From: a virus
IMG/VR virus record: IMGVR_UViG_3300029220_000004
Length of the DNA stretch: 64,000 nt
Direction: 5' to 3' (one strand)
Shown: in pieces, positions 1,890 through 59,236 of the stretch
How positions within the stretch are numbered: the stretch's first letter is position 1
How the letters are laid out: the number at the start of each line of letters is the position of its first letter
Position numbers and translations under genes: made by a program
Notes under the pieces: model-generated
Databases searched by the model: none
Told to the model about the DNA's origin: nothing
What the model saw: the letters and a program-made list of their open reading frames with translations, nothing else

Positions 1890-3445
1890 ATGGCCGATAA
1901 TACCATAGATACCCTCAATATACAAATAGAGAGTAGCACAACTCAGGCGGTGCGGTCTATTAATAACCTTGTAAAAAAATTAGATACATTAAACACTGCC
2001 TTTGGAAATCTTGACATAAGCCGGTTAAATAATTTTTCCAATTCTTTAAAAAGTTTAGGTAGCGTGAATTTTAAAGCAAATGGATTGAATGCGGCTATAA
2101 ACGCTATCAATCGTCTTGGAAAATCTGATTTCAGTCAGTTTGATACAGGGAAATTAGGCAAAATTCTTACTGAGATGCAGAAACTTGATGCTATTCCAGA
2201 TGTTTCTCCGAGCGTTAGCCGGTTTACAACCGCTATAGCTAAACTTGCCGGTACAGGACAGTATATCGGCAATGTATCAAAGGAACTTCCGAATCTTGCG
2301 ACAGGTTTAAATAATGTGGCTGCTAAATTAAGCTCTATGAGTGAAGTATCAGCATCCACCAATGCCTTTATTACTTCTCTTGGAAAATTAGCTGGTGCAG
2401 GAGATAAAACTGGAAAGACTGCAAGCCAATTATCAACTCTCGCGCAAGAGGTTTTGAAGTTTTTTGACGTAATGAAAAGCGCACCAGATATCAGTTCGAG
2501 TACAATAAGAATGACAGAAGCTCTTGCAGTATTAGCATCGTCTGGAAGCAAAGTAGGGCGTGCCACAAATAGCGTTTCGAATTCATTTAACGCGCTTTCT
2601 TCGTTAGGTTCAAAAGCAAGTACTGTAATCAATGGGCTGACAAATGCTTTTCAAAAATTTGCTTCAAAAGCTATTTCTTTAGGCGGAAAAGCTGTATCTG
2701 CAATCGCAGGTATTGGAAATGCATCGTCTGAAACTGGTGAAAAAATAAGAAGATTGTCAAACCCTATGAGTTCAGTAACTGATAAGTTGAGTGCTCTTTA
2801 CGCCAAAGGTTTCCTCGTAAAAAGAGCATTAGATGTTCTGACATCGCCAGTAGAATCCGCAATGAACTATGTAGAGACTCTGAACTATTTCAACTCTGCG
2901 TTCAATCAGGTGGCAGAAGGAATCAACACTGACGAATGGAAAAAAAGTGGCATAAAATCCGCTGAAGCATATGCAAATTCATTCCAGGAAAGGGCAAAAC
3001 AGCTTTCACAGAAACTGACAGGATTCGAAATTTCAGATACTGGTGAACTGGCTAGAACCAATACCGCTAGTCTTGGACTTGACCCAGAAAAAACAATGCA
3101 GTATCAGGCAACATTTGCACAGATGGCATCATCTATGGGCGATACATCAGAGACTGCATTAAAATTGTCTAATGCACTCACTATGATTGGCGCAGACCTT
3201 GCTTCTGTACGAAACATGGACTTCGAGGATGTATGGCAGGACATGGCATCTGGCTTGACTGGTATGAGCCGCGCTATGGACAAGTACGGCATTAATATCC
3301 GTAATGCCAACATGCAACAGGAACTGTATAATCTTGGAATTAATACCAGCATATCGAATTTGTCTCAGGCAGATAAAACGATTCTGAGAACGATTATCTT
3401 GCTGAACAACTCTAAGTATGCATGGGCTGATTTGTCAGAAACGAT
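1890..3445 (+). CDS. tail tape measure protein, exon 1
   Basis: RBS AAAGGAGG. Helical repeat-rich N-terminal part and the TP901-type core (...AWADLSETI). The frame hits a stop 6 codons after the proposed 5' splice site. Confidence 0.8.
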
Positions 3446-3768
3446 AAATAGGTCAGTAGCGTGATAAATGCGTAGCTACTGGCAAGTCGCTCATATCGAA
3501 ACCGTCAAGTAGGATATGAGTTATTAGTGATGAAATAAGCTGGAAAGCCGTTTGCAACGGTAATCAGAGAGTGAAGGCTATGATTAAAAGTATAGTCAAC
3601 CGCAACGCGTAGGAAGTGAAACTGTAGTTGAGATACTACAGAATATAATCTTCCCAAGAGGCATCACTATCGGACGGTACAGGTGCAGAGCCTGTGGTAA
3701 AAAGGTACGCTGGACATGCATTGTAATAATGCAGAAGTGAGGATAAAAAGCCTTACGATAACAAATCG
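3446..3768 (+). ncRNA. putative ORF-less group I self-splicing intron in the tape measure gene
   Basis: Removing 3446-3768 joins ...SETI|NQPANQIRMLQSNF in frame. The last exon nt is U (3445) and the last intron nt is G (3768). GTCG at 3486-3489 can pair with exon CGAU, giving a G.U at the splice site. Hairpins at 3454-3481, 3622-3641 and 3679-3695. AAAAGTATAGTC resembles the conserved AUAGUC core segment. Confidence 0.6.
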
Positions 3769-6700
3769 AAATCAACCGGCAAATCAGATTCGTATGCTTC
3801 AATCTAACTTTGCATCCCTTGGTAGAACAATAGGTTCCTTATTCATTCCTATACTGCAAACAGTACTTCCATATATCAATGCAATAGTAATCGCAATACA
3901 AAGAATGTTCGCTTATATTGCAAAACTTCTTGGAATCAAACTGTCTAACTTTGTATCATCTACTGGCGGTATTTCTGTAGATACAAGTAACATTGCGGAT
4001 GATATGGATAATGCCAGTGATTCTATTGATACTGCAAATAAGAATGCCAAAAAGCTCAAAAAAACATTGTCAGTTCTTTCATTTGATGAACTGAATCAGC
4101 TTAATGACAATTCTGATTCTGGTAGTACAAGTAATCCATCTTCTGGCTCTGGAAAAGGCGGTTTGGGGCATATCAAAGCACTTGATGCAGCTTTGAACGA
4201 TGCTTTATCTGCATATCAAAAAGCATGGGACGAAGCATTCAAGAAAATGTCCAACAGGGCAAATGAAATGGCAGATGCCATTGTAAATGCCTTTAAGAGA
4301 AAAGACTGGAAAGGCCTTGGAAAAATCATGGCTGATGGCATCAACTGGGGAATGCAAAAGCTTTATGATTTCATTAACTGGAATAACGTAGGCCCGTACA
4401 TCACTAAATTCACCAGTGCGTTCACCCAGACTTTCAACAGCCTTGTTGATAATATCAACTGGGATTTGATGGGACGTACCGTTGGAGCTGGTATGAATAC
4501 TATTGTAAATACTGCAAACCAACTTCTGGAAGGAATCGACTGGAAGAACCTTGGTGCTAAATTTGCCAATGGTATCACTGGCCTTGTTCGTGAAGTGAAT
4601 TGGGAAAACTTCGGCAATCTGCTTGGAAATTCCTTTATGCGTGGATGGGATATTTTCTCAGGCTTCGTAGAAAATCTCCAGTACGGAGAAATTGGAACAG
4701 CTGTCGCAGAAGGCTTGAACGGAATCTTTGAAAAGATTAATTTCGGTGAAATTGCTCATACACTTGCAACTGGATTGAATGGTGCTTTTGATACATTGGC
4801 TTCATTTACAGCAAGCTTTAATTGGGAAAATCTTGTTGATAACATTACAAATGGAATCACCACATTCATGCAAGAATTCAACTGGAAAGAGAATGGACAG
4901 AAGTTAGAAGAATTTATTAACAAATTACTCACGTCACTTATCGAGATTGCAAGGGGTGTCGATTGGGAAGCGTTTGGACACAATGTAGGCGTATTCCTCA
5001 GTGAAATTGACTGGGGAAAACATCTTGCACAGTTACTTACGGTTATCGGAGACGTTCTTGGTGGAATCTGGGAAGGACTTGGAACAACATCTGCCGGCAC
5101 ATTTGTTCAGGCAATGGCTGTTTTTGCTATTGGTAATAAGCTCATGCCATTAGTTGATACAATTACTAAGTTTTTTACAGGTGATACTGTATTTGGAAAT
5201 CTTTCTAAAGCTGTACAAGGTATGCTGAGTCCCGCAATCACAGAAGCAGTCTCAACAACTATTCCGGCTCTTGGGACATCGTTAGGCTCACTTGTTGCAA
5301 CTGGTGGTGGAATTGCTCTTGCAGTAGGTGGTGCAGTATTACTTACCAAGAAATTAGCAGGACTTTTTGAAACCATGCAGGGTGGTAATGGAATGACTAC
5401 ACAATATGGTGGTTATCTCCATGATTACGCAACACAGCTGACTGATGTAGCAAATCTTACAAACGATCAATCGGAAGCGTTGTGGCAGTTGATTGAAAAG
5501 GATGAAGAACTTGGAAAAACTCACGATGAAATGTACTCTGATATGGTTGAAAAGCTTAAAGAATACGGAGTGTCCACAGATCAGGCAAAAACCGCTCTTG
5601 AGCAGTATGGCGCACAGGCAGGTGTATCGGCTGAATTTGTTGAAGGCATGACCGATCAAATTTCTGCTCTTGGAGAAGGTGTGTCTGAAGCTGCAAGTAA
5701 ATTTGATACATCCAAAATAAGTGTCGATAATTTGAAAGATACTCTGTACGCATTGAGCCTTTCTTCTACAGAATTCGGAGGTAATTATACGACGGCATGG
5801 AATGCAATAAGCGAAGTGCCTTATAGCAACACAAAAGATGCATTAGACGCGGTCTACACTTCTCTCAAAAACGCAGGTGTTCCACTTGACGAACTTGATA
5901 AGAAGTTAAGAGAAGATTTTCCAGAAGCAACTGCAGCTACTAAAACAGCAGTAGACAAGAATATTGTTGGAGCACAGCAGACTATTTCAACATCAGTTGG
6001 ACAAGCATCTAAAGATACAAAGACAGCCACAAATGAAATGGCAAAAAATGCCACAGATGATTTCTCGGAAATCCAGAAACAAGCCGATACTTACATGAAA
6101 GGCATGGAAAACACAACTACTAGCTCATGGGGCAATTCTTCCAGAGAAGCTACATTGAAAGCCAGGGAAATGAAAAATGCCGTAAGTACAGAGCTTGGAA
6201 ATATGGACAAATCTGTAACAAGCCATTTCCAAAGTCAGTACAACATTGCTTATAAGAAATGGGAGAATATCGGAAGAGATATTTCTTCTTATGTTTCTGG
6301 AAGTATGTCAAAGAGTATGGATAGCTCTTTAAATAGCTTTATGAGAACTATTCGCAGCGCATTCAGTGATATGTACAGCATTGGCCATAATGCGGCTCAA
6401 TCATTAAGAAATGGAATGAAATCCGTGAGAATGCCTACGCTTTCGTATTATATTTCTCAGTGGAAAACACATAGCCTTGGGAACGGCGGTACCAGTTCAA
6501 CCCCTGTCTATAGTCCGAACTGGTACGCTAAAGGCGGTTTGTTCAAAAATGCATCTGTCATTGGTGTAGGCGAAGCAGGACAGGAAGCCGTTCTTCCTTT
6601 GGAAAATCGTAAAGCCATGAAATCCATTGCCGACAGCATCATGTCTGGATATGACGGCAACATGGGACTTACGAAAGATGAGATCATGGAAGCTGTTGAG

Positions 6701-6862
6701 CGTGGTGTAGTTACTGCTTTGATGAACAATGGTGGCTTTGGCGGTTCTTCACCGGAGTACATCATGAACAGCATCAAAGTGAACGAGCGTGAACTGGCGC
6801 GAATTGTCACAAAGGCTCAGAACAACACAGATTACCGCATGAATCCGTCCCCGGCATATTGA
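3769..6862 (+). CDS. tail tape measure protein, exon 2
   Basis: Continues the TMP core (QPANQIRMLQSNFASLGRTIGSLFIPIL), then W/F-periodic repeats and TM-like segments. The two exons sum to 4650 nt (1549 aa plus stop). The ATG at 3716 in the ORF track lies inside the intron. Confidence 0.8.
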
Positions 6863-7218: not shown

Positions 7219-7351
7219 TTTTGGTAAAACCAGTAGGCTAGGGTAGCTCCCGAAAAGTGTAATTCCATGATACACCTGCCTACTGTTTTTATAAATCATG
7301 GATCTGTGGCTACAAGGCAGTCACGCATTAACGACATGGAGGTTATCTATT

Positions 7352-8512
7352 ATGAGCGAACAAATCAAAGAATTATCCCAAAATGAATTAGAAAGAAAAG
7401 TAGATTACATATTTTCACATAGATTTAATCACACTCTGCATGCTTATATCGATATTGCAGGTGATTTAACAGCAGGTGTTTTATTATCTCAAATTATGTA
7501 CTGGTTTGATAAAGATTCAAAAAATGAGTGCGTCAGAACAAAAATCAAAAAGAAAGGTTATTTTTGGATTGCTAGGCGTAGAGATGAATGGGCAAACGAA
7601 ATAAGAGTTGCACCTAAGCAGTATGATTCTGCGATGAAAAAATTAAAAGCTAGAAATTTGGTAGTTGTTGAAAAATTTAAAATTAATGGTGCTCCAACAA
7701 CGCATATCAGACCTAATGATGAAGTAATAAATGTTGCTATTAAAGAATGGAAAGAACAAATTGCTCTTGAAATTATCAAAGACAACGAAGCGGAACAAAG
7801 TGACGTGAATTCCTCAAATCAGAATTTACCAGAAGAGGAAAATCACGAAAAAGTAGTGCCAAATGATGATAAACACTGGTTTTCCCCAAAAGAGGAATTT
7901 CCAAATTCCCAAAACAAGGAAAACCATGGAATTTCCCAAAATGGGAAAATGGAACTTCCCCAAAATGGAAACTCTTTAATTAATAAGAACTATAATAAAG
8001 ATTTAGATGAGGTTTATAAAAAGAGGGTTAAAGATTCTGATACTACTAAAGTAGTACCAGTAGATTCTCCATGTCCGGGTAAGCCGGAAACAAGGAGCAT
8101 CCAGTCTCCACTCGGAATGGGAATAAGCGAAATCCTTTTGAGGAAAGGAATAAACCAATATTGGAATGATGTAGGATGCGAAGAGTATGAAGAATTGAAA
8201 ACAAATGTCACTAATGTCATATTATATTTTTTGGAAAAATACAAAATTAAACTAGGCAAAAGCCATGTTCATTTAAAAGAAGAATATATAAAAACCGTAG
8301 TAGAAGGAATTGTTACAGTACCAGACGAGATGATTGAGTTGATAGATGCTTATGGCTTTGAGTATATTTATAAATCATGCATTGACATGTATTTTGATAC
8401 AAAATTCAGAGAAGATACCAATTATCGTATTTTTCATTTCATAAAAGGTGATATTAGGAAAAATATTGCAATGAAACTTTCAGACCAAATAGAGTTGATA
8501 AGCGATAAATAA
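7352..8512 (+). CDS. DnaD/replication-initiator-like winged-helix protein
   Basis: Start at MSEQIKEL after GGAGG. N-terminal region (LLSQIMYWFDK...GYFWIARRRDEWANEI) looks like replication-initiator/HTH_36 domains. The C-terminal half is unassigned. Confidence 0.45.
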   Translation: MSEQIKELSQNELERKVDYIFSHRFNHTLHAYIDIAGDLTAGVLLSQIMYWFDKDSKNECVRTKIKKKGYFWIARRRDEWANEIRVAPKQYDSAMKKLKARNLVVVEKFKINGAPTTHIRPNDEVINVAIKEWKEQIALEIIKDNEAEQSDVNSSNQNLPEEENHEKVVPNDDKHWFSPKEEFPNSQNKENHGISQNGKMELPQNGNSLINKNYNKDLDEVYKKRVKDSDTTKVVPVDSPCPGKPETRSIQSPLGMGISEILLRKGINQYWNDVGCEEYEELKTNVTNVILYFLEKYKIKLGKSHVHLKEEYIKTVVEGIVTVPDEMIELIDAYGFEYIYKSCIDMYFDTKFREDTNYRIFHFIKGDIRKNIAMKLSDQIELISDK

Positions 8513-8656: not shown

Positions 8657-8986
8657 ATGAGTAGACTTGGAAAAGAAATGCCGGCAGAGTATTCTGACCG
8701 ATTTGATGAACTGAGGCAAAACCGGTGCGAAACAAGCTTTTACAAATACGGCACGGCAAAAGATAATTTTGGAGAACGTCTGGTAAATGCGATTGAATCA
8801 CACGATATGTGCATTAAAAAATATAAAGAAACTGGTAACACGGAGTATCTTTGCGATGCTGCGAATTATCTGATGTTCGAATTTATGTATCCACAAATCG
8901 AAGGTGCTTATTTCAAAGCAACCGACAGTGGGAAAAGTGCCGGAGTAGTTGGAACACCAATTAATCAGTTAAAGGAGAAATGGTAG
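8657..8986 (+). CDS. hypothetical protein
   Basis: 109-aa ORF with RBS AGAAAGTGAGAAAG. No motif recognised. Confidence 0.5.
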   Translation: MSRLGKEMPAEYSDRFDELRQNRCETSFYKYGTAKDNFGERLVNAIESHDMCIKKYKETGNTEYLCDAANYLMFEFMYPQIEGAYFKATDSGKSAGVVGTPINQLKEKW

Positions 8987-9144
8987 GATGAAAAAATCGG
9001 GCAATTCTTATGGGAAACACGGATTATGAATCATTTTGCAAAGAGCACTTCGAAAGATTCATTTCTGATATCCAAAAGAAACATTAATATAACTTTTTCT
9101 TACTGAATCTCACCTTGTATATGTGATAGAATAAAGAATCATAA

Positions 9145-9217
9145 AGCGTCTATCAGAGCGATAGGCGCTATTTTCGTGTAATTAAGCATCTTCTTTCGGG
9201 AAGGTGCTTTTTCTTTT
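9145..9217 (+). terminator. two tandem rho-independent terminators
   Basis: AGCGTCTATC/GATAGGCGCT followed by ATTTT, then GCATCTTC/GGAAGGTGC followed by TTTTTCTTTT. They close the moron island just before the distal tail gene. Confidence 0.6.
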
Positions 9218-9229
9218 ATGAGGTGTTAT

Positions 9230-9592
9230 ATGGCAGAAATATTTTTAAAAGTAAACGGTGTCTCGATGCCTTGCCCGTCTTCCTACACATGGGGATTACA
9301 GGACGTATCAGCGGCAAAATCAGGAAGATCTGATGACTCTGTCATGCATAAAAACAGGGTAGCGCAAAAAAGAAAATTAGCTTTGCAGTGGAACGGTAAA
9401 GATTGGGCTACTACAGCTAAGATTCTTCAAGCGTTCAATCCCGAGTACATCCAAATTACATATCCAGATATGATGTCTGGAAAATACGAAACCAGAACAT
9501 TTTATGTTGGTGACAGGAGTGCGCCTGTTAAATGGTGGTGGCATGGAAACCAGAGAACAGAATCTATCAGTTTTGATGTGATTGAGAGGTGA
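9230..9592 (+). CDS. distal tail protein-like (small Dit-position protein)
   Basis: About 120 aa starting MAEIFLKVNGV. Sits immediately upstream of, and translationally coupled to, the large tail protein. Assignment is by position only. Confidence 0.5.
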   Translation: MAEIFLKVNGVSMPCPSSYTWGLQDVSAAKSGRSDDSVMHKNRVAQKRKLALQWNGKDWATTAKILQAFNPEYIQITYPDMMSGKYETRTFYVGDRSAPVKWWWHGNQRTESISFDVIER

Positions 9593-55834: not shown

Positions 55835-56132
55835 ATACATGCTGATTGCAATTCCTATGAGGATTATTCCGTTTTTTATCATAGAGCGGGTTAAACCTAT
55901 AATTAAACCGAAAGGATACGCTTGTCCGGTAGTGGAGCGGTATGCAAGCAAACGATCGAGACATCCGATTTAGCAAATATGACTCTACAAAAAAAGAGAA
56001 CAACTTAGTTATTTAAACGCTGATTCTCCACATAAGTTGTGTTGCAATTGTAGAGCACATAATAAAAATATTATCACACATTCAATTCTTTCTCCTGCTT
56101 TTGTAATGGTGCGGAGTGGGAGAAAGATTCTA

Positions 56133-56202
56133 GGGCTATCGCCAAGTGGTAAGGCACAGCACTTTGACTGCTGTATTCGCGGGTTCGAATCCCACTAGCC
56201 CA
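56133..56202 (+). tRNA. tRNA-Gln (anticodon TTG)
   Basis: Manual cloverleaf: acceptor GGGCTA/TAGCCC, D arm CCAAGTGGTAAGG, anticodon stem CAGCA/TGCTG with loop CTTTGAC, T loop TTCGAAT. Confidence 0.75.
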
Positions 56203-56263
56203 GCTTGCCGGGCTGCGCATGTACCTGGCAATGGTTTATTTTACATAGACCCTCCGACGAAAA

Positions 56264-56315
56264 CCCATCTAGCTCAACGGAGCTGATTAAAGGGGCTTCA
56301 AATGTCCCGGATGGG
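56264..56315 (+). ncRNA. cloverleaf-like element lacking a T arm
   Basis: Closing stem CCCATC/GATGGG encloses GCTC-AACG-GAGC and GGGGC-TTCAAAT-GTCCC hairpins. Not a canonical tRNA. Confidence 0.3.
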
Positions 56316-56437
56316 AATCATCGTAAAAACGATGTACTCTATTTATCCATGACATTTGTTGCGGCTGGTGGCAAAGAACCGCAACAGTAGAAGCAAATCA
56401 ACTCAAAATCTGCAATCCGGGAGACTGCTTCTACTCA

Positions 56438-56510
56438 GGAAATTTAGTTCAGCGGTTAGAACGCCCGGCTCATAACCGGGAAGTCCTGAGTTCGAATCTC
56501 AGAATTTCCA
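56438..56510 (+). tRNA. tRNA with CAT anticodon (Met or Ile2)
   Basis: Acceptor GGAAATT/AATTTCC, D arm GTTCAGCGGTTAGAAC, anticodon stem CCCGG/CCGGG with loop CTCATAA, T arm CTGAGTTCGAATCTCAG. Confidence 0.85.
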
Positions 56511-56869
56511 TTTCTTCCGTATGCTACCCATCCGTTTTATGGGCAGAAAAAACTTTCGGATGAGCGTATGTGAATCAGAATGAGCAAAGGTATGTAACGG
56601 CATAGGCTTGTGCTTGATCTGATTTCCCGTCCGATAAATGTTTCTTAGTTTCAATAAGCCATCACAAGTGCACATTGATGGCAGGGAGTTTTCAAGAAGC
56701 ATAAAGTTAAAAGGCATAATAATATCCGAAACAACTCCGTGGAGCATACCACGGTTACCAAAAAGCCGTCAGGTTGGCAAAAATACGATAGTCCAAGTTA
56801 TGAAAAATTGCCTAGTGGAAAGCATAACACGAAAAAATCATTGCTAACCCGGAACAATCTCCGGGTTCT

Positions 56870-56940
56870 GGGGGAATAATACCATAAGGGGCAGAGGGCT
56901 GATTAACAGTACCAGGGCGGTTCAACTCCGCATTCTCCCA
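56870..56940 (+). tRNA. atypical tRNA-like RNA with a TTA (ochre-reading) triplet in the anticodon position
   Basis: Acceptor GGGGGAA/TTCTCCC, T arm GCGG-TTCAACT-CCGC, anticodon arm GGGCT-GATTAAC-AGTAC. Against it: A at position 33, one G-A mismatch and a weak D arm. Confidence 0.35.
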
Positions 56941-57040
56941 TTATCCAATCTGTAAATATTGGATATGAGGAAGCTGTCCGAGATGTAAGAAACAGTCGGT
57001 TTGTGGATTGCCGGTACAAATACGCTGAAAATCCACACAA

Positions 57041-57112
57041 GGCAGGGTAGAGAAGTGGAATCTCACAAGACTCATATTCTTGAGAACGGCGGTTCGAATC
57101 CGCCTCCTGCAA
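57041..57112 (+). tRNA. tRNA with CAT anticodon (Met or Ile2), second copy
   Basis: D arm GAGA-AGTGGAA-TCTC, anticodon stem CAAGA/TCTTG with loop CTCATAT, T arm GGCGG-TTCGAAT-CCGCC. Pair 1:72 is mismatched. Confidence 0.8.
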
Positions 57113-57234
57113 CTTAATCCGTCTATCATTCAGCGGATTAAAACAAATTCTCAATACACCTTCTTTCTATGAATGTGGAACTCAACCCAATTGCTCTTTC
57201 ATTGGAGTGTTTGACCGTTATAGGCGGCAACTAT

Positions 57235-57349
57235 GGCGAGGTAGCTCAATTGGTAGAGCAGTAAAAAGATTGCAAGTCATGTTTGTGACTTCTACAGCAA
57301 TTCTTCCATTACAAGGTACGTGTTGATGGTTCGACTCCATCCCTTGCCA
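57235..57349 (+). ncRNA. 115-nt tRNA-shaped RNA with an extended bulged helix in place of the anticodon arm
   Basis: Canonical acceptor GGCGAGG/CCTTGCC, D arm GCTC-AATTGGTA-GAGC and T arm GATGG-TTCGACT-CCATC. However, 65 nt lie between the D and T arms, forming GTAA/TTAC + GATTGC/GCAATT + AAGTCA/TGACTT helices with a CTACA bulge and a TGTTTG loop. Confidence 0.5.
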
Positions 57350-57503
57350 CTATGTGGTGCTTACAGCAATTATTCTGGATATGACTGTTAATCATAAAAA
57401 CCAAAAGCATCATGAAAATTTTAGGGGACACTTACAGCAACTTATTTATTAATAAAATCTTAGGCGAATATTTTATATTTTTGTGTCCTGAAAGGAGAAA
57501 AAC

Positions 57504-58961
57504 ATGGATTTCGCAAACGCAATGAAAGAAGAAGGTAAATTCACAAGAACTGAAAATGGCGCAGTCGCACTGAGCACTACAAGCGATGCAAGACTTGACT
57601 TGTTTGGAACTGTTGGAGCATTAAGAGATGCTGATGAGAATAGAATCACTACATTGTTCTCAGAAGCGTATGCACAGGACAAGCTCTTTGCAACAAAGAT
57701 TGCTTTTTACGCAAGAGATATTCGTTGCGGACTTGGAGAAAGAAAAACTTTCCGAACCATTATTCGCTATATGGCAGAGTATCATCCAGAAGCGCTCAGA
57801 CCAAACCTTGATTTGACTGGAGTGTTTGGAAGATACGATGACCTCTATGAATTGATTGGGACACCACTGGAAGATGATATGTGGAAAACCATGAAAAATC
57901 AGTTCGAGGAAGATCTGAAGAATCTCAATGATGGCAAAGCAATTTCTCTGCTTGCCAAATGGATTAAAACTGCTGACGCAAGTAGTGCAAAGACTAGAAA
58001 ATTAGGAATTATGACTGCACAGAAGTTAGGCTATCCAGTTTACAACTTTAAGAGAATCGTTCGCAGCATGAGAAAACAGATAGGTGTTGTTGAAAGCCTC
58101 ATGTCTGCCGGTAAGTGGAACGAGATTAAATATCCAGAAGTTCCAAGCCGTGCAATGATGATTTATCGTAGAGCCTTTGCAAAGCATGATCCAGATAGAT
58201 TCAGCGAATTTATCAATAAAGCTGATAAAGGAGAAGCTAAAATCAATGCTTCAACCTTGTATCCATACGACATCGTAGAAAAAATCCTTTATGGAAGAGA
58301 AAACAACAAAGTTCTTGAAGCACAGTGGAAAGCACTTCCAGATTATGTTGAACAGGGAACAAATGCACTGATAATGGCTGATGTATCTGGCTCAATGTAT
58401 GGAAGACCAATGGCAACGTCAATCGGTTTGGCAATATATTTTGCCGAGAGAAATACAGGAGCATATCATAATTTGTTTATGACATTCTCTAGTTGTCCAC
58501 AGATTGTTTCTCTGAATGGAGAAACACTTCATCAGAAAATAATCAATGTTGCAAAAGCAAATTGGGGCTATGGCACAAACCTTAAAGCTGCATTTGAGAA
58601 AGTACTCGATATTGCTGAAGAGAACAACGTTTTACAAGAAGAGATGCCGAAAGCTATAGTCGTTATCTCTGATATGGAAATTGATTATAGTGGGAATAAG
58701 GATTGGACTTTCTATGACAAAATGGAAAAGAAATTCCGAAAAGCCGGATATGTTATTCCGAATATTATCTTTTGGAATGTCAACAGCAGACATGACGTAT
58801 TCCATGCAGACGCCACAAGAAAAGGTGTACAGCTTGCAAGTGGTCAGTCGGTAACAGTATTCAAACAGGTATTACAGAACCTTGGATACAATCCGATTGA
58901 AACTATGGAAAACATAATCAATTCAGAAAGGTACGACTGCATTACAATTGAGAAAATATAA
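57504..58961 (+). CDS. DUF2828/TROVE-like helical domain + vWA (MIDAS) protein
   Basis: 485 aa. N-terminus ...TENGAVALSTTSDARLDLF...FYARDIRCGLGERKTFR (DUF2828 style). C-terminal vWA domain with DVSGSM...T...SDME MIDAS-like residues. The architecture parallels Ro60. Confidence 0.65.
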   Translation: MDFANAMKEEGKFTRTENGAVALSTTSDARLDLFGTVGALRDADENRITTLFSEAYAQDKLFATKIAFYARDIRCGLGERKTFRTIIRYMAEYHPEALRPNLDLTGVFGRYDDLYELIGTPLEDDMWKTMKNQFEEDLKNLNDGKAISLLAKWIKTADASSAKTRKLGIMTAQKLGYPVYNFKRIVRSMRKQIGVVESLMSAGKWNEIKYPEVPSRAMMIYRRAFAKHDPDRFSEFINKADKGEAKINASTLYPYDIVEKILYGRENNKVLEAQWKALPDYVEQGTNALIMADVSGSMYGRPMATSIGLAIYFAERNTGAYHNLFMTFSSCPQIVSLNGETLHQKIINVAKANWGYGTNLKAAFEKVLDIAEENNVLQEEMPKAIVVISDMEIDYSGNKDWTFYDKMEKKFRKAGYVIPNIIFWNVNSRHDVFHADATRKGVQLASGQSVTVFKQVLQNLGYNPIETMENIINSERYDCITIEKI

Positions 58962-58968
58962 AACATAC

Positions 58969-59050
58969 GGAGCGAACTAGGTGTAGTGTAGTGGTTCGAT
59001 TCCACTTGTGGGCGTAGCTCTTGCGAATAAGGTTTCCACCGTTTTTTTTG
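58969..59050 (+). ncRNA. T-arm-containing structured element ending in a T-run, just after the TROVE-like gene
   Basis: AGTGG-TTCGATT-CCACT (58990-59006) lies inside a GGAGC/GCTCT closing stem. T8 at 59042-59049. No acceptor partner found. Confidence 0.3.
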
Positions 59051-59092
59051 ATTTTTTGACGATACAATAAAATCAGATTTGGTTAGTTAAGT

Positions 59093-59175
59093 GGTGCATT
59101 GCTGTAATGGTAACAGAGAGACTTGCTAAGTCTTCCAACAGAAATGTTGTCCGTGTTCGAATCACGGATGCACCG
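59093..59175 (+). tRNA. tRNA-Ser (anticodon GCT)
   Basis: Acceptor GGTGCAT/ATGCACC, D arm CTGT-AATGGTA-ACAG, anticodon loop TTGCTAA, long variable arm CAACA-GAAA-TGTTG, T arm CCGTG-TTCGAAT-CACGG. Confidence 0.85.
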
Positions 59176-59236
59176 TTCCAATGAAATGCAATCATTGGAA
59201 GGATTTCATTTTTATCTTACCTTTCTATGAATGGTT

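What the first reader, a model, noticed from the sequence alone, without database searches (positions are those of the whole stretch)
3446..3768. ORF-less group I-like intron interrupting the tape measure gene
The TMP reading frame stops at 3462-3464 and resumes about 300 nt later. Deleting exactly 3446-3768 rejoins the conserved core as ...ADLSETI|NQPANQIRML in frame, with the exons summing to 4650 nt. The junctions obey group I rules: U before the 5' splice site and G as the last intron nt. GTCG at 3486-3489 can form P1 with exon CGAU, giving a G.U at the splice site. The insert has stops in all frames and several stable hairpins (3454-3481, 3622-3641, 3679-3695). It also carries an AAAAGTATAGTC segment resembling the conserved AUAGUC core strand. 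I could not build a full P3-P9 model by eye.
Basis: partly seen in the sequence, partly recalled or inferred. Interest (0 to 1): 0.65.

Follow-up and report, generated by a model that had tools for sequence, protein, structure and literature searches.

The report
Group I intron in tape-measure gene
The 323-base insert that splits this phage's tail tape-measure gene is an ordinary self-splicing group I intron without its own endonuclease gene, of a subtype (IA1) already described in phage tape-measure genes, so the gene is intact and the finding is correct but not new.

Summary
Window 3446-3768 (323 nt) interrupts a 1549-codon tape-measure (TMP) gene, and removing it restores one ORF that lines up with uninterrupted TMPs. 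Among 73 near-identical IMG/VR relatives, 47 have no insert, 23 carry this 322/323-nt insert, and 3 carry a 1253-nt related intron at the same site. That larger intron encodes a GIY-YIG/NUMOD1 homing endonuclease.

I built a full P1-P9 group I model, including the P3/P7 pseudoknot, a bulge-flanked invariant G-C pair in P7, U.G at the 5' splice site, a terminal G, and a P7.1/P7.1a insertion typical of subgroup IA. Covariation supports it: 83% of pair cells are paired across 41 diverse homologs, against 37-41% for slid controls, and 99.4% across ten same-site variants.

Rfam's RF00028 model finds nothing. However, it also scores the textbook T4 td intron below its own threshold. A family covariance model built without the window hits 3521-3670 at 122 bits (E=3e-29). 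The same family includes the published IA1 intron TMP-IVS3b of plasmid pBWB404 and the intron in the terL (large terminase subunit) gene of phage JCL1032, which is reported to self-splice.

Verdict: a new member of a known kind, of low interest. Splicing itself is inferred, not shown.

The parts
1890..3445 (+). TMP exon 1 (1556 nt). It ends ...GAAACGAU, and its last 4 nt (3442-3445, CGAU) form the 5' strand of P1.
   Evidence: ORF list and translation. tblastn to annotated tape measure proteins.
3446..3768 (+). ORF-less group I intron (IA1-type), 323 nt.
   Evidence: In-frame excision. Presence/absence polymorphism in 73 relatives. Covariation. Family covariance model built without the window.
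3452..3483 (+). P1 extension hairpin (stem 3452-3460 / 3475-3483) inside the P1 loop. Its loop, GUGAUAAAUGCGUA, is conserved in close relatives.
   Evidence: MFE fold. 100% paired, with one compensatory and four one-sided changes among the ten same-site variants. Related introns.
3486..3489 (+). Internal guide sequence GUCG. It pairs with exon CGAU (3442-3445), with U3445.G3486 at the 5' splice site.
   Evidence: Invariant in 10/10 same-site variants. The sister HEG-containing intron has AUUU-GUCG. Related tail-gene introns have exon UGGU with IGS GCCG.
3490..3520 (+). P2 hairpin (3490-3497 / 3513-3520).
   Evidence: Perfect 8-bp inverted repeat (I3). MFE fold. Compensatory change in same-site variants.
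3526..3532 (+). P3 5' strand (AGUGAUG). It pairs with 3662-3668.
   Evidence: Inverted repeat I4. All 7 pairs show double changes across 41 homologs. The RNAalifold consensus recovers it independently.
3540..3567 (+). P4 (3540-3543 / 3564-3567) enclosing P5 (3547-3552 / 3556-3561), with A-rich J4/5 and J5/4.
   Evidence: P4 is 95% paired, with 3 of 4 pairs compensatory. MFE fold.
3576..3597 (+). P6 hairpin GGCUAU...AUAGUC.
   Evidence: 88% paired, with all 6 pairs showing double changes. Compensatory changes in same-site variants.
3603..3611 (+). P7 5' strand (C-A-A-C-GCGUA) with C3606 bulged. G3607 pairs with C3710, the candidate guanosine-binding pair.
   Evidence: P7 is 97.6% paired, and 4 pairs show double changes. 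The G-C pair is invariant in 41/41.
3612..3654 (+). P7.1 (3612-3616 / 3650-3654) plus P7.1a hairpin (3622-3628 / 3635-3641). This peripheral insertion between P7 and P3' marks subgroup IA.
   Evidence: P7.1 is 100% paired, with 4 of 5 pairs compensatory. P7.1a is 92% paired. Subgroup features per PMC3984707.
3662..3668 (+). P3 3' strand (CAUCACU). It lies between the two strands of P7, which creates the group I P3/P7 pseudoknot.
3669..3698 (+). P8 (outer 3669-3671 / 3696-3698; inner 3679-3683 / 3691-3695).
   Evidence: Two compensatory pairs among same-site variants.
3699..3712 (+). J8/7 (AAAAAGG, 3699-3705) followed by the P7 3' strand (UACGCUG, 3706-3712).
   Evidence: Nearly invariant A-rich joiner in 41 homologs. 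P7 covariation.
3717..3768 (+). P9 (3717-3722 / 3728-3733), then a P9.x hairpin (3737-3742 / 3751-3756) with the conserved loop AUAAAAAG, then the conserved tail GAUAACAAAUCG ending in omega-G 3768.
   Evidence: Alignment A1. Pair counts. This is the most conserved stretch in blastn hits to other phage introns.
3769..6862 (+). TMP exon 2 (3094 nt including the stop). It starts AAAUCAACC.
   Evidence: The +1 base is A in all 26 insert-bearing alleles and C or T in all 47 intron-less alleles.

Best explanation
[quoted passage not shown] It sits inside a conserved stretch of the phage tape-measure gene.

**Proposed mechanism** (inferred from established group I chemistry, not measured here):

1. 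The pre-mRNA folds into P1-P9.
2. The guide sequence GUCG (3486-3489) pairs with exon CGAU, presenting U3445.G3486.
3. A free guanosine, bound at the G3607-C3710 pair of P7, attacks the 5' splice site.
4. The terminal G3768 then takes over the G-binding site.
5. The free 3'-OH of exon 1 attacks the 3' splice site.
6. The exons are joined as ...ACGAU|AAAUCAACC, so a single 1549-aa tape measure protein is translated.

**Mobility.** The intron probably entered this site by endonuclease-mediated homing. It now persists as an endonuclease-less allele. In the same phage population, intron-less alleles and a related intron carrying a GIY-YIG endonuclease occupy the same site.
For: **The gene is intact once the insert is removed.**
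- Removing 323 nt restores one 4650-nt ORF.
- Uninterrupted TMPs cover the junction in a single tblastn piece, for example Dulem virus 39 at 100% coverage.

**Natural presence/absence.**
- Among 73 relatives with 92-99% aa identity, 47 have no insert, 23 have the 322/323-nt insert, and 3 have a 1253-nt insert at the same nucleotide position.
- The 1253-nt insert belongs to the same RNA family (covariance model R1, 59 bits).
- It carries a GIY-YIG + NUMOD1 ORF and the guide sequence AUUU-GUCG. That sequence is complementary to both exon ends, CGAU|AAAU.

**Structure.**
- The hand-built P1-P9 model includes the P3/P7 pseudoknot.
- On a MAFFT alignment of 41 distinct homologs, 83.3% of pair cells are paired, against 37-41% when partners are slid. 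The covariation score is 0.519 against 0.08-0.16, and 0 of 500 shuffles reach it.
- P7 is 97.6% paired and P7.1 is 100% paired, with multiple compensatory pairs. The P7 G-C pair next to the bulge is invariant.
- Among ten same-site variants, 99.4% of cells are paired and 9 pairs show compensatory changes. This points to ongoing selection on the fold.
- The MFE fold reproduces the helices (z = -3.4).

**Family.**
- The 21-nt core motif occurs in at least 120 viral contigs and at least 120 prokaryotic contigs.
- nhmmer finds 163 copies in 1.1 Mb of fetched loci. The annotated phage examples lie in split genes: terminase, helicase, gyrA and tail genes, often with endonuclease ORFs.
- A covariance model built without the window, using an RNAalifold-derived structure, hits 3521-3670 at 122.5 bits (E=3e-29). 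That is the only significant hit in the window.
- The same model hits pBWB404 TMP-IVS3b at 87 bits. That intron is published as an HEG-less IA1 group I intron in a TMP gene (PMC2504315).
- It also hits the JCL1032 terL intron at 70 bits. That intron is reported as self-splicing by Riipinen & Alatossava 2004, cited in PMC6669764.

**No independent expression signals.** There is no + strand promoter or terminator inside the insert, and no terminal inverted repeats.
Against: - Rfam RF00028 gives no hit, even at E<=10 on a 511-nt slice. T4 td is at least detectable at E=4e-8. The P7 sequence here (GCGUA/UACGC) differs from the common GACUA/UAGUC.
- P1 in the window's copy is only 4 bp. I found no convincing P10, although sister variants have one.
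- For some related introns (L084, L111) I could not assign P1 by eye.
- No RNA data or biochemical assay is available, so splicing is inferred.
- I did not read the JCL1032 splicing paper itself. I saw only a citation of it.
Confidence: 0.93

Rival explanations
1. The insert derives from an intron but can no longer splice. The TMP gene in this phage is therefore a pseudogene, or splicing depends entirely on a protein cofactor supplied in trans.
For: P1 is short (4 bp) and the window's copy has no evident P10. There is no endonuclease ORF, and no splicing data.
Against: The same insert sits in at least 23 otherwise intact, long phage contigs with open exons. Ten variants keep 99.4% of pairs, with 9 compensatory pairs. 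All core helices and the G-binding pair are intact. A TMP is essential for assembly of a long-tailed phage (general knowledge).
Confidence: 0.04
2. The locus encodes two separate tape-measure polypeptides. The first (1890-3464) ends in the insert. The second starts at ATG 3716. The insert is then an intergenic spacer.
For: An ATG at 3716 opens the downstream ORF in frame, with an AAAGG stretch a short distance upstream.
Against: Forty-seven near-identical phages and many distant TMPs encode a single continuous protein across this point. The insert is conserved as RNA structure, not as codons. Its homologs interrupt unrelated genes. It has no promoter or terminator.
Confidence: 0.02
3. The insert is a non-intron mobile element (a MITE or IS remnant with a 4-bp AAAT target duplication), or a very long translational bypass ('hop') element.
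For: AAAT flanks both junctions.
Against: There are no terminal inverted repeats and only one copy in the window. The group I topology is supported by covariation. The insert is homologous to published group I introns. At 323 nt it is far longer than the 50-nt T4 gene 60 bypass (general knowledge).
Confidence: 0.01

Closest known systems
TMP-IVS3a/b group I introns (IA1) in tape-measure genes of Bacillus cereus-group prophages, including pBWB404 (Tourasse & Kolsto 2008, PMC2504315)
   Same: - Same RNA family: pBWB404 TMP-IVS3b matches the family HMM over positions 5-231 (E=3e-29) and model R1 at 87 bits.
- Same host-gene type (TMP).
- TMP-IVS3b also lacks a complete endonuclease gene.
- The situation is the same: different related introns, with and without an HEG, occupy one TMP site.
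   Different: - The TMPs are not detectably homologous at the junction, so the insertion site differs.
- The host differs: a gut-metagenome phage rather than a Bacillus prophage.
- The window's copy has a longer P5 and a P7.1a hairpin that pBWB404 lacks.
Self-splicing group I introns of Lactobacillus delbrueckii phage JCL1032 (terL and TMP genes; Riipinen & Alatossava 2004, cited in PMC6669764)
   Same: - The terL intron is a clear family member (R1 69.8 bits, E=1e-15).
- JCL1032 also has an intron in its TMP gene, annotated as a joined CDS.
   Different: - The JCL1032 TMP intron matches only weakly (22.8 bits, E=0.002).
- The insertion sites and hosts differ.
- I did not read the splicing evidence first-hand.
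T4 td intron (IA2, with the GIY-YIG endonuclease I-TevI)
   Same: - Same mechanism class and overall P1-P9 topology, with extra helices between P7 and P3'.
- Similar 3' tail: ...AACAUAAUG against ...AACAAAUCG.
- The sister intron at this TMP site carries an I-TevI-like GIY-YIG/NUMOD endonuclease.
   Different: - The family HMM and covariance model detect no similarity to td.
- td has the canonical P7 GACUAU/AUAGUC and separate P7.1 and P7.2 helices.
- The window's intron has no ORF.
Rfam RF00028 (Intron_gpI)
   Same: It is the generic model for the class.
   Different: It gives no hit here. It also scores T4 td below its own gathering threshold. It is therefore not a usable membership test for IA-type phage introns.

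Membership tests
Group I intron | The insert interrupts a gene, and its removal restores an ORF that lines up with uninterrupted homologs. | tested here: met
   47 intron-less near-identical alleles, with an exact 323-nt difference.
Group I intron | P1: the last exon nucleotide is a U that forms a U.G wobble with an internal guide sequence near the intron's 5' end. | tested here: met
   U3445.G3486 sits within CGAU/GUCG and is invariant in 10/10 same-site variants. The sister intron's guide sequence is AUUU-GUCG. Related introns have exon UGGU with guide GCCG. The helix is only 4 bp in this copy.
Group I intron | The last intron nucleotide is G (omega-G). | tested here: met
   G3768 is conserved in all same-site variants and in the 1253-nt sister intron.
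Group I intron | Conserved core P3-P9 with the P3/P7 pseudoknot (order P3-P4-P5-P6-P7-P3'-P8-P7'-P9). | tested here: met
   Across 41 homologs, 83.3% of cells are paired against 37-41% for slid controls, and the covariation score is 0.519 against at most 0.163. RNAalifold independently recovers P3, P6 and P7.1/P7.1a.
Group I intron | A guanosine-binding G-C pair in P7, next to a bulged nucleotide. | tested here: met
   G3607-C3710 is invariant in 41/41. C3606 is bulged. The flanking A-U pair covaries to G-C. This is sequence-level evidence only.
Group I intron | P10 pairing between the guide sequence and the start of exon 2. | tested here: not met
   No convincing P10 in the window's copy (CAA lies upstream of GUCG, against exon AAAU). 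P10 is present in the L202-type variant (UGAUUU) and in the sister intron (AUUU). To my knowledge P10 is not universal among group I introns.
Group I intron | A match to the Rfam RF00028 covariance model. | tested here: not met
   No hit at the gathering threshold or at E<=10. In the control, T4 td scores 40.3 against the 50-bit threshold. PMC6125680 states that RF00028 does not capture subtype diversity.
Group I intron | GTP-dependent self-splicing in vitro, or a spliced junction in vivo. | not testable with these tools
   No RNA or biochemical data. A family member (the JCL1032 terL intron) is reported as self-splicing (citation in PMC6669764; homology).
Subgroup IA (IA1) | Extra helices (P7.1 with P7.1a or P7.2) between the P7 5' strand and P3'. 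| tested here: met
   P7.1 at 3612-3616/3650-3654 is 100% paired with 4 compensatory pairs. P7.1a is at 3622-3641. The role of P7.1/P7.2 in classification is given in PMC3984707.
Subgroup IA (IA1) | Homology to introns that specialists have classified as IA1. | tested here: met
   pBWB404 TMP-IVS3b, classed IA1 in PMC2504315, matches the family HMM at E=3e-29 and model R1 at 87 bits. The GISSD IA1 covariance model was not available to run.
Mobile (homing) group I intron | The intron encodes a homing endonuclease. | tested here: not met
   Stops in all six frames. The window has no homolog of the sister intron's GIY-YIG protein. The 1253-nt sister intron at the same site does encode one.
MITE / IS-derived insertion | Terminal inverted repeats and multiple genomic copies. 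| tested here: not met
   No terminal inverted repeats. Single copy in the window.

The most novel reading that the evidence does not exclude
Three alleles of one TMP codon position coexist in a single gut-phage species cluster that is about 96% identical in nucleotide sequence: an empty site, an ORF-less IA1 intron, and a distantly related IA1 intron carrying a GIY-YIG endonuclease. This could be a live 'homing cycle'. In that reading, the ORF-less intron persists because it disrupts the endonuclease's target, acting as an immunity allele, and/or because the sister intron's endonuclease mobilises it in trans. The A at exon position +1 and the N-to-E codon change next to the junction would then be co-conversion or resistance marks. 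A secondary point is that this very widespread IA1 family is invisible to Rfam, so many 'split' phage genes in metagenomes are probably mis-annotated.
Probability: 0.3. Interest if true: 0.4.

Novelty: new member of a known kind. Interest (0 to 1): 0.2.

Why it matters
**Annotation.** The TMP of this phage should be annotated as one joined CDS (1890..3445, 3769..6862) encoding 1549 aa, not as two ORFs or a pseudogene. TMP length sets tail length, so a wrong call would mislead structural inference.

**Detection.** This case shows that the standard Rfam group I model misses a large IA1-type family. Automated pipelines will therefore report many broken terminase, helicase, gyrase and tail genes that are really intron-containing.

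**Population genetics.** The three-allele polymorphism at one site (empty, ORF-less intron, endonuclease-bearing intron) is a convenient natural data set for studying intron gain, loss and competition. The phenomenon itself is well described.

Tried and rejected
- **Rfam, gathering and E-value modes.** I searched the window, the 511-nt slice and four related loci. No group I hit appeared. I do not count this as evidence against the intron, because the T4 td control scored below threshold.
- **Full-length family covariance model (233 positions).** I used the P3-to-P3' half (139 positions) instead, so no covariance model tests the 3' domain. Only nhmmer and pair counts cover it.
- **Reading 'AUAGUC' as P7.** Rejected. 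It pairs locally with GGCUAU as P6, and the real P7 covaries as GCGUA/UACGC against GCAUA/UAUGC.
- **Search for P10 in the window's copy.** I found none. The UGAU in the P1-extension loop is not conserved among variants.
- **Pfam on the 236-aa junction region.** No family matched. The TMP identity rests on tblastn hits to annotated tape measure proteins.
- **Same insertion site as the pBWB404 or JCL1032 TMP introns?** No detectable protein homology at the junction.
- **Free-standing homolog of the GIY-YIG endonuclease in the window.** None found.
- **Is the ORF-less intron a simple deletion derivative of the 1253-nt intron?** No. The RNA parts are only about 49% identical.
- **Assigning P1 by eye for L084 and L111.** Inconclusive.
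- **MITE or bypass readings.** Rejected.

Full report
**1. The observation**

The window has an ORF at 1890-3464 and another open frame that runs to 6862. Removing 3446-3768 (323 nt) joins 1556 + 3094 = 4650 nt into one ORF of 1549 codons. It reads ...AWADLSETI|NQPANQIRML... The insert has stops in all six frames. T3445 precedes the insert and G3768 ends it.

Because AAAT begins both the insert and exon 2, the excision could be slid by up to 4 nt with the same product. Only 3446-3768 gives a U at -1 and a terminal G.

tblastn of the spliced junction finds many phage proteins annotated as tape measure proteins. They cover the junction in one uninterrupted piece. Dulem virus 39, for example, gives 100% coverage at 52% identity.

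**2. A natural experiment: presence and absence of the insert**

A scan of IMG/VR with the spliced junction returned 80 loci. I could place the junction in 73 close relatives (92-99% aa identity, about 96% nucleotide identity to the window over 7 kb). The result:

| Allele at the site | Number of contigs |
|---|---|
| No insert (...ACGAT\|CAATCAACC...) | 47 |
| 323-nt insert (one copy is 322 nt) | 23 |
| 1253-nt insert | 3 |

The first base of exon 2 is A in all 26 insert-bearing alleles. It is C or T in all 47 empty alleles. The change is synonymous (ATC or ATT to ATA).

The 1253-nt insert (L198 3363-4615) belongs to the same RNA family (model R1, 59 bits). Its RNA parts are only about 49% identical to the window's intron. 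It contains a 315-aa ORF with GIY-YIG and NUMOD1 domains, which makes it an I-TevI-like homing endonuclease. Its guide region reads AUUU-GUCG. That is exactly complementary, with the usual U.G wobble, to the two exon ends CGAU|AAAU.

**3. The RNA structure**

blastn of the insert against GenBank phages gave short matches (70-94% identity) in 72 records. The annotated examples I inspected fall in gaps of split genes:

- Staphylococcus large terminase, with an annotated homing endonuclease
- Bacillus phage helicase
- Yersinia phiR1-37 gyrA
- a Clostridium phage tail gene

Compensatory changes were already visible by eye in these matches. From them I built a full model (intron position 1 = window 3446):

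| Element | Intron positions | Notes |
|---|---|---|
| P1 | exon CGAU / 41-44 (GUCG) | U.G at the 5' splice site |
| P1 extension | 7-15 / 30-38 | hairpin inside the P1 loop |
| P2 | 45-52 / 68-75 | |
| P3 | 81-87 / 217-223 | |
| P4 | 95-98 / 119-122 | |
| P5 | 102-107 / 111-116 | |
| P6 | 131-136 / 147-152 | |
| P7 | 158, 160, 162-166 / 261-267 | C161 bulged |
| P7.1 | 167-171 / 205-209 | |
| P7.1a | 177-183 / 190-196 | |
| P8 | 224-226 + 234-238 / 246-253 | outer and inner stems |
| J8/7 | 254-260 | AAAAAGG |
| P9 | 272-277 / 283-288 | |
| P9.x | 292-297 / 306-311 | conserved loop AUAAAAAG |
| Tail | 312-323 | GAUAACAAAUCG, ending in omega-G |

P3 and P7 cross each other. This is the group I pseudoknot.

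An unconstrained MFE fold reproduces every nested helix (z = -3.4).

On a MAFFT alignment of 41 distinct family members from different contigs (A1), the results were as follows:

- 83.3% of pair cells form standard pairs, against 37-41% when the 3' partners are slid by 1-3 columns.
- 551 cells carry changes on both sides, against 92-226 for the slid controls.
- The covariation score is 0.519, against 0.08-0.16. None of 500 shuffles reaches it.
- P7 is 97.6% paired, with four pairs showing double changes. The G-C pair next to the bulge is invariant (41/41), as expected for the guanosine-binding site.
- P7.1 is 100% paired, with four compensatory pairs.

Within the ten distinct same-site variants, 99.4% of 830 cells are paired. 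Nine pairs, in the P1 extension, P2, P6, P7.1a, P8 and P9, show compensatory changes. P3, P4, P5, P7, P7.1 and the CGAU/GUCG P1 are invariant. This pattern shows selection on the fold within the present phage population.

**4. Correcting one detail**

AAAAGTATAGTC (3586-3597) is not the J8/7-P7 strand. AUAGUC pairs with GGCUAU ten nucleotides upstream to form P6, and this hairpin covaries (helix 4). The real P7 is GCGUA/UACGC, which alternates with GCAUA/UAUGC in relatives. This unusual P7 sequence probably explains why the generic model misses the intron.

**5. The covariance-model question**

Rfam 15 gives no group I hit at the gathering threshold, or at E<=10 on a 511-nt slice. It also finds none in four related loci.

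As a control, the textbook T4 td intron scores only 40.3 bits against RF00028's 50-bit threshold. Nawrocki et al. 2018 (PMC6125680) state that RF00028 does not capture the subtype diversity. In their hands it missed all the archaeal introns that subtype models found.

I therefore built a family model without the window or its same-phage copies. It uses 37 sequences covering the P3-to-P3' half, and its structure comes from RNAalifold rather than from my model. It hits window 3521-3670 at 122.5 bits (E=3e-29). There is no other significant hit in 64 kb.

**6. Link to described introns**

The same model hits two published introns:

- **The intron in the TMP gene of plasmid pBWB404** (Bacillus mycoides/weihenstephanensis KBAB4) at 87 bits. 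The family HMM matches it over positions 5-231 at E=3e-29. Tourasse & Kolsto 2008 (PMC2504315) describe this intron as TMP-IVS3b, an IA1 group I intron without a complete endonuclease gene. They also describe related introns, with and without endonucleases, sharing one TMP site.
- **The intron in the terL (large terminase subunit) gene of Lactobacillus phage JCL1032** at 69.8 bits (E=1e-15). It also gives a weak hit to that phage's TMP intron. Riipinen & Alatossava 2004 reported the JCL1032 introns as self-splicing, according to the citation in PMC6669764. I did not read the original paper.

T4 td (IA2) is not hit.

The P7.1/P7.1a insertion between P7 and P3' fits subgroup IA (feature list in PMC3984707).

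**7. Family distribution**

A 21-nt core motif occurs in at least 120 IMG/VR contigs and at least 120 prokaryotic genome contigs. The prokaryotic hits are mainly Bacillota and Nostoc, with some candidate phyla radiation (CPR) genomes and a few archaeal MAGs. nhmmer finds 163 copies in 1.1 Mb of fetched loci, but only one in the window.

**8. Rival explanations**

- **Two separately translated TMP halves.** The ATG at 3716 makes this formally possible. It is contradicted by the continuous TMP in 47 near-identical phages and in distant homologs. It is also contradicted by RNA-type rather than codon-type conservation, and by the lack of a promoter or terminator in the insert.
- **A decayed, non-splicing relic.** This is unlikely, given the compensatory evolution and the intact exons in at least 23 long contigs.
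- **A MITE, IS remnant or bypass element.** The insert has no terminal inverted repeats and occurs as a single copy.

**9. What remains inferred or unexplained**

Splicing itself has not been observed. P1 is only 4 bp in this copy, and I found no P10, although two sister forms have one.

In one TMP lineage, the intron's first 7 nt equal the empty allele's exon-2 start (TAACCAG). Two alternative excisions would therefore give the same protein. Only the U(-1)/GUCG choice fits group I rules. The cause is not established. It may be similarity between the intron's first bases and the start of exon 2, which can pair with overlapping guide bases, combined with a crossover during homing.

**10. Verdict**

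The element is an ORF-less IA1-type group I intron in a phage TMP gene. That situation was described in 2004-2008, so this is a new member of a known kind. The practical lessons are to annotate the gene as a joined CDS and to recognise that RF00028 is blind to this abundant family.

Noticed in passing
window 57235-57349 (+): A tRNA-like gene (Rfam RF00005, 46.3 bits) has normal acceptor, D and T arms. Where the top of the anticodon stem and the loop (11 model positions) should be, it has 53 nt instead. ARAGORN does not call it. The MFE fold turns the insert into a long extended arm. The insert is too short for a group I intron, so this could be an unusual tRNA intron, an extended arm, or a pseudo-tRNA.
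   Followed up: partly
window 7231-7301 (+): An int-alpA RNA motif (RF02996, 54 bits against a 35.8-bit threshold) lies immediately upstream of a 404-aa ORF (7298-8512). It sits just downstream of the TMP gene, an unexpected place inside a tail module.
   Followed up: no
L198 3363-4615 (also L199, L201): A 1253-nt sister intron occupies the same TMP site in three related phage contigs. It carries a 315-aa GIY-YIG + NUMOD1 homing endonuclease and a textbook guide sequence, AUUU-GUCG. Its RNA parts are only about 49% identical to the window's intron.
   Followed up: yes
L202/L203/L207 junctions (TMP lineage B), compared with window 3446-3452: The intron's first 7 nt (TAACCAG) are identical to the first 7 nt of exon 2 in the intron-less allele of the same lineage. 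Exon 2 of the intron-bearing allele starts AAATCAG. Two alternative excisions would therefore encode the same I-N-Q. The cause is unknown.
   Followed up: partly
L010 3859-4484; L078 ~8950-9256; L056 ~4930-5240; L013: L010 has two family introns about 130 nt apart in one gene. L078 and L056 carry related introns four codons apart in homologous tail-gene N-termini (spliced GVSTLG[I/V]TFGYG), both with exon UGGU and guide GCCG. L013 has about eight family hits in 14 kb.
   Followed up: partly
window 3427-3434 and 3780-3787 (also 3425-3433 / 3769-3777): The two exons are complementary to each other: CTGATTTG in exon 1 and CAAATCAG in exon 2. Similar sequences occur at these positions in the intron-less alleles. 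This is probably a coding coincidence, but it could help bring the splice sites together.
   Followed up: no
Genome-contig loci L209-L328 (e.g. L210, L223, L226, L236, L277; many Nostoc contigs): The 21-nt family core motif also occurs in contigs labelled as archaeal MAGs, candidate phyla radiation (CPR) bacteria and many Nostoc genomes. I did not check whether these are full introns or what they interrupt.
   Followed up: no
window 55977-56058 (+): A weak hit of the family covariance model (17.7 bits, E=0.07) lies just upstream of the tRNA cluster (Gln, Met, Met, Ser at 56132-59176). It is probably noise.
   Followed up: no
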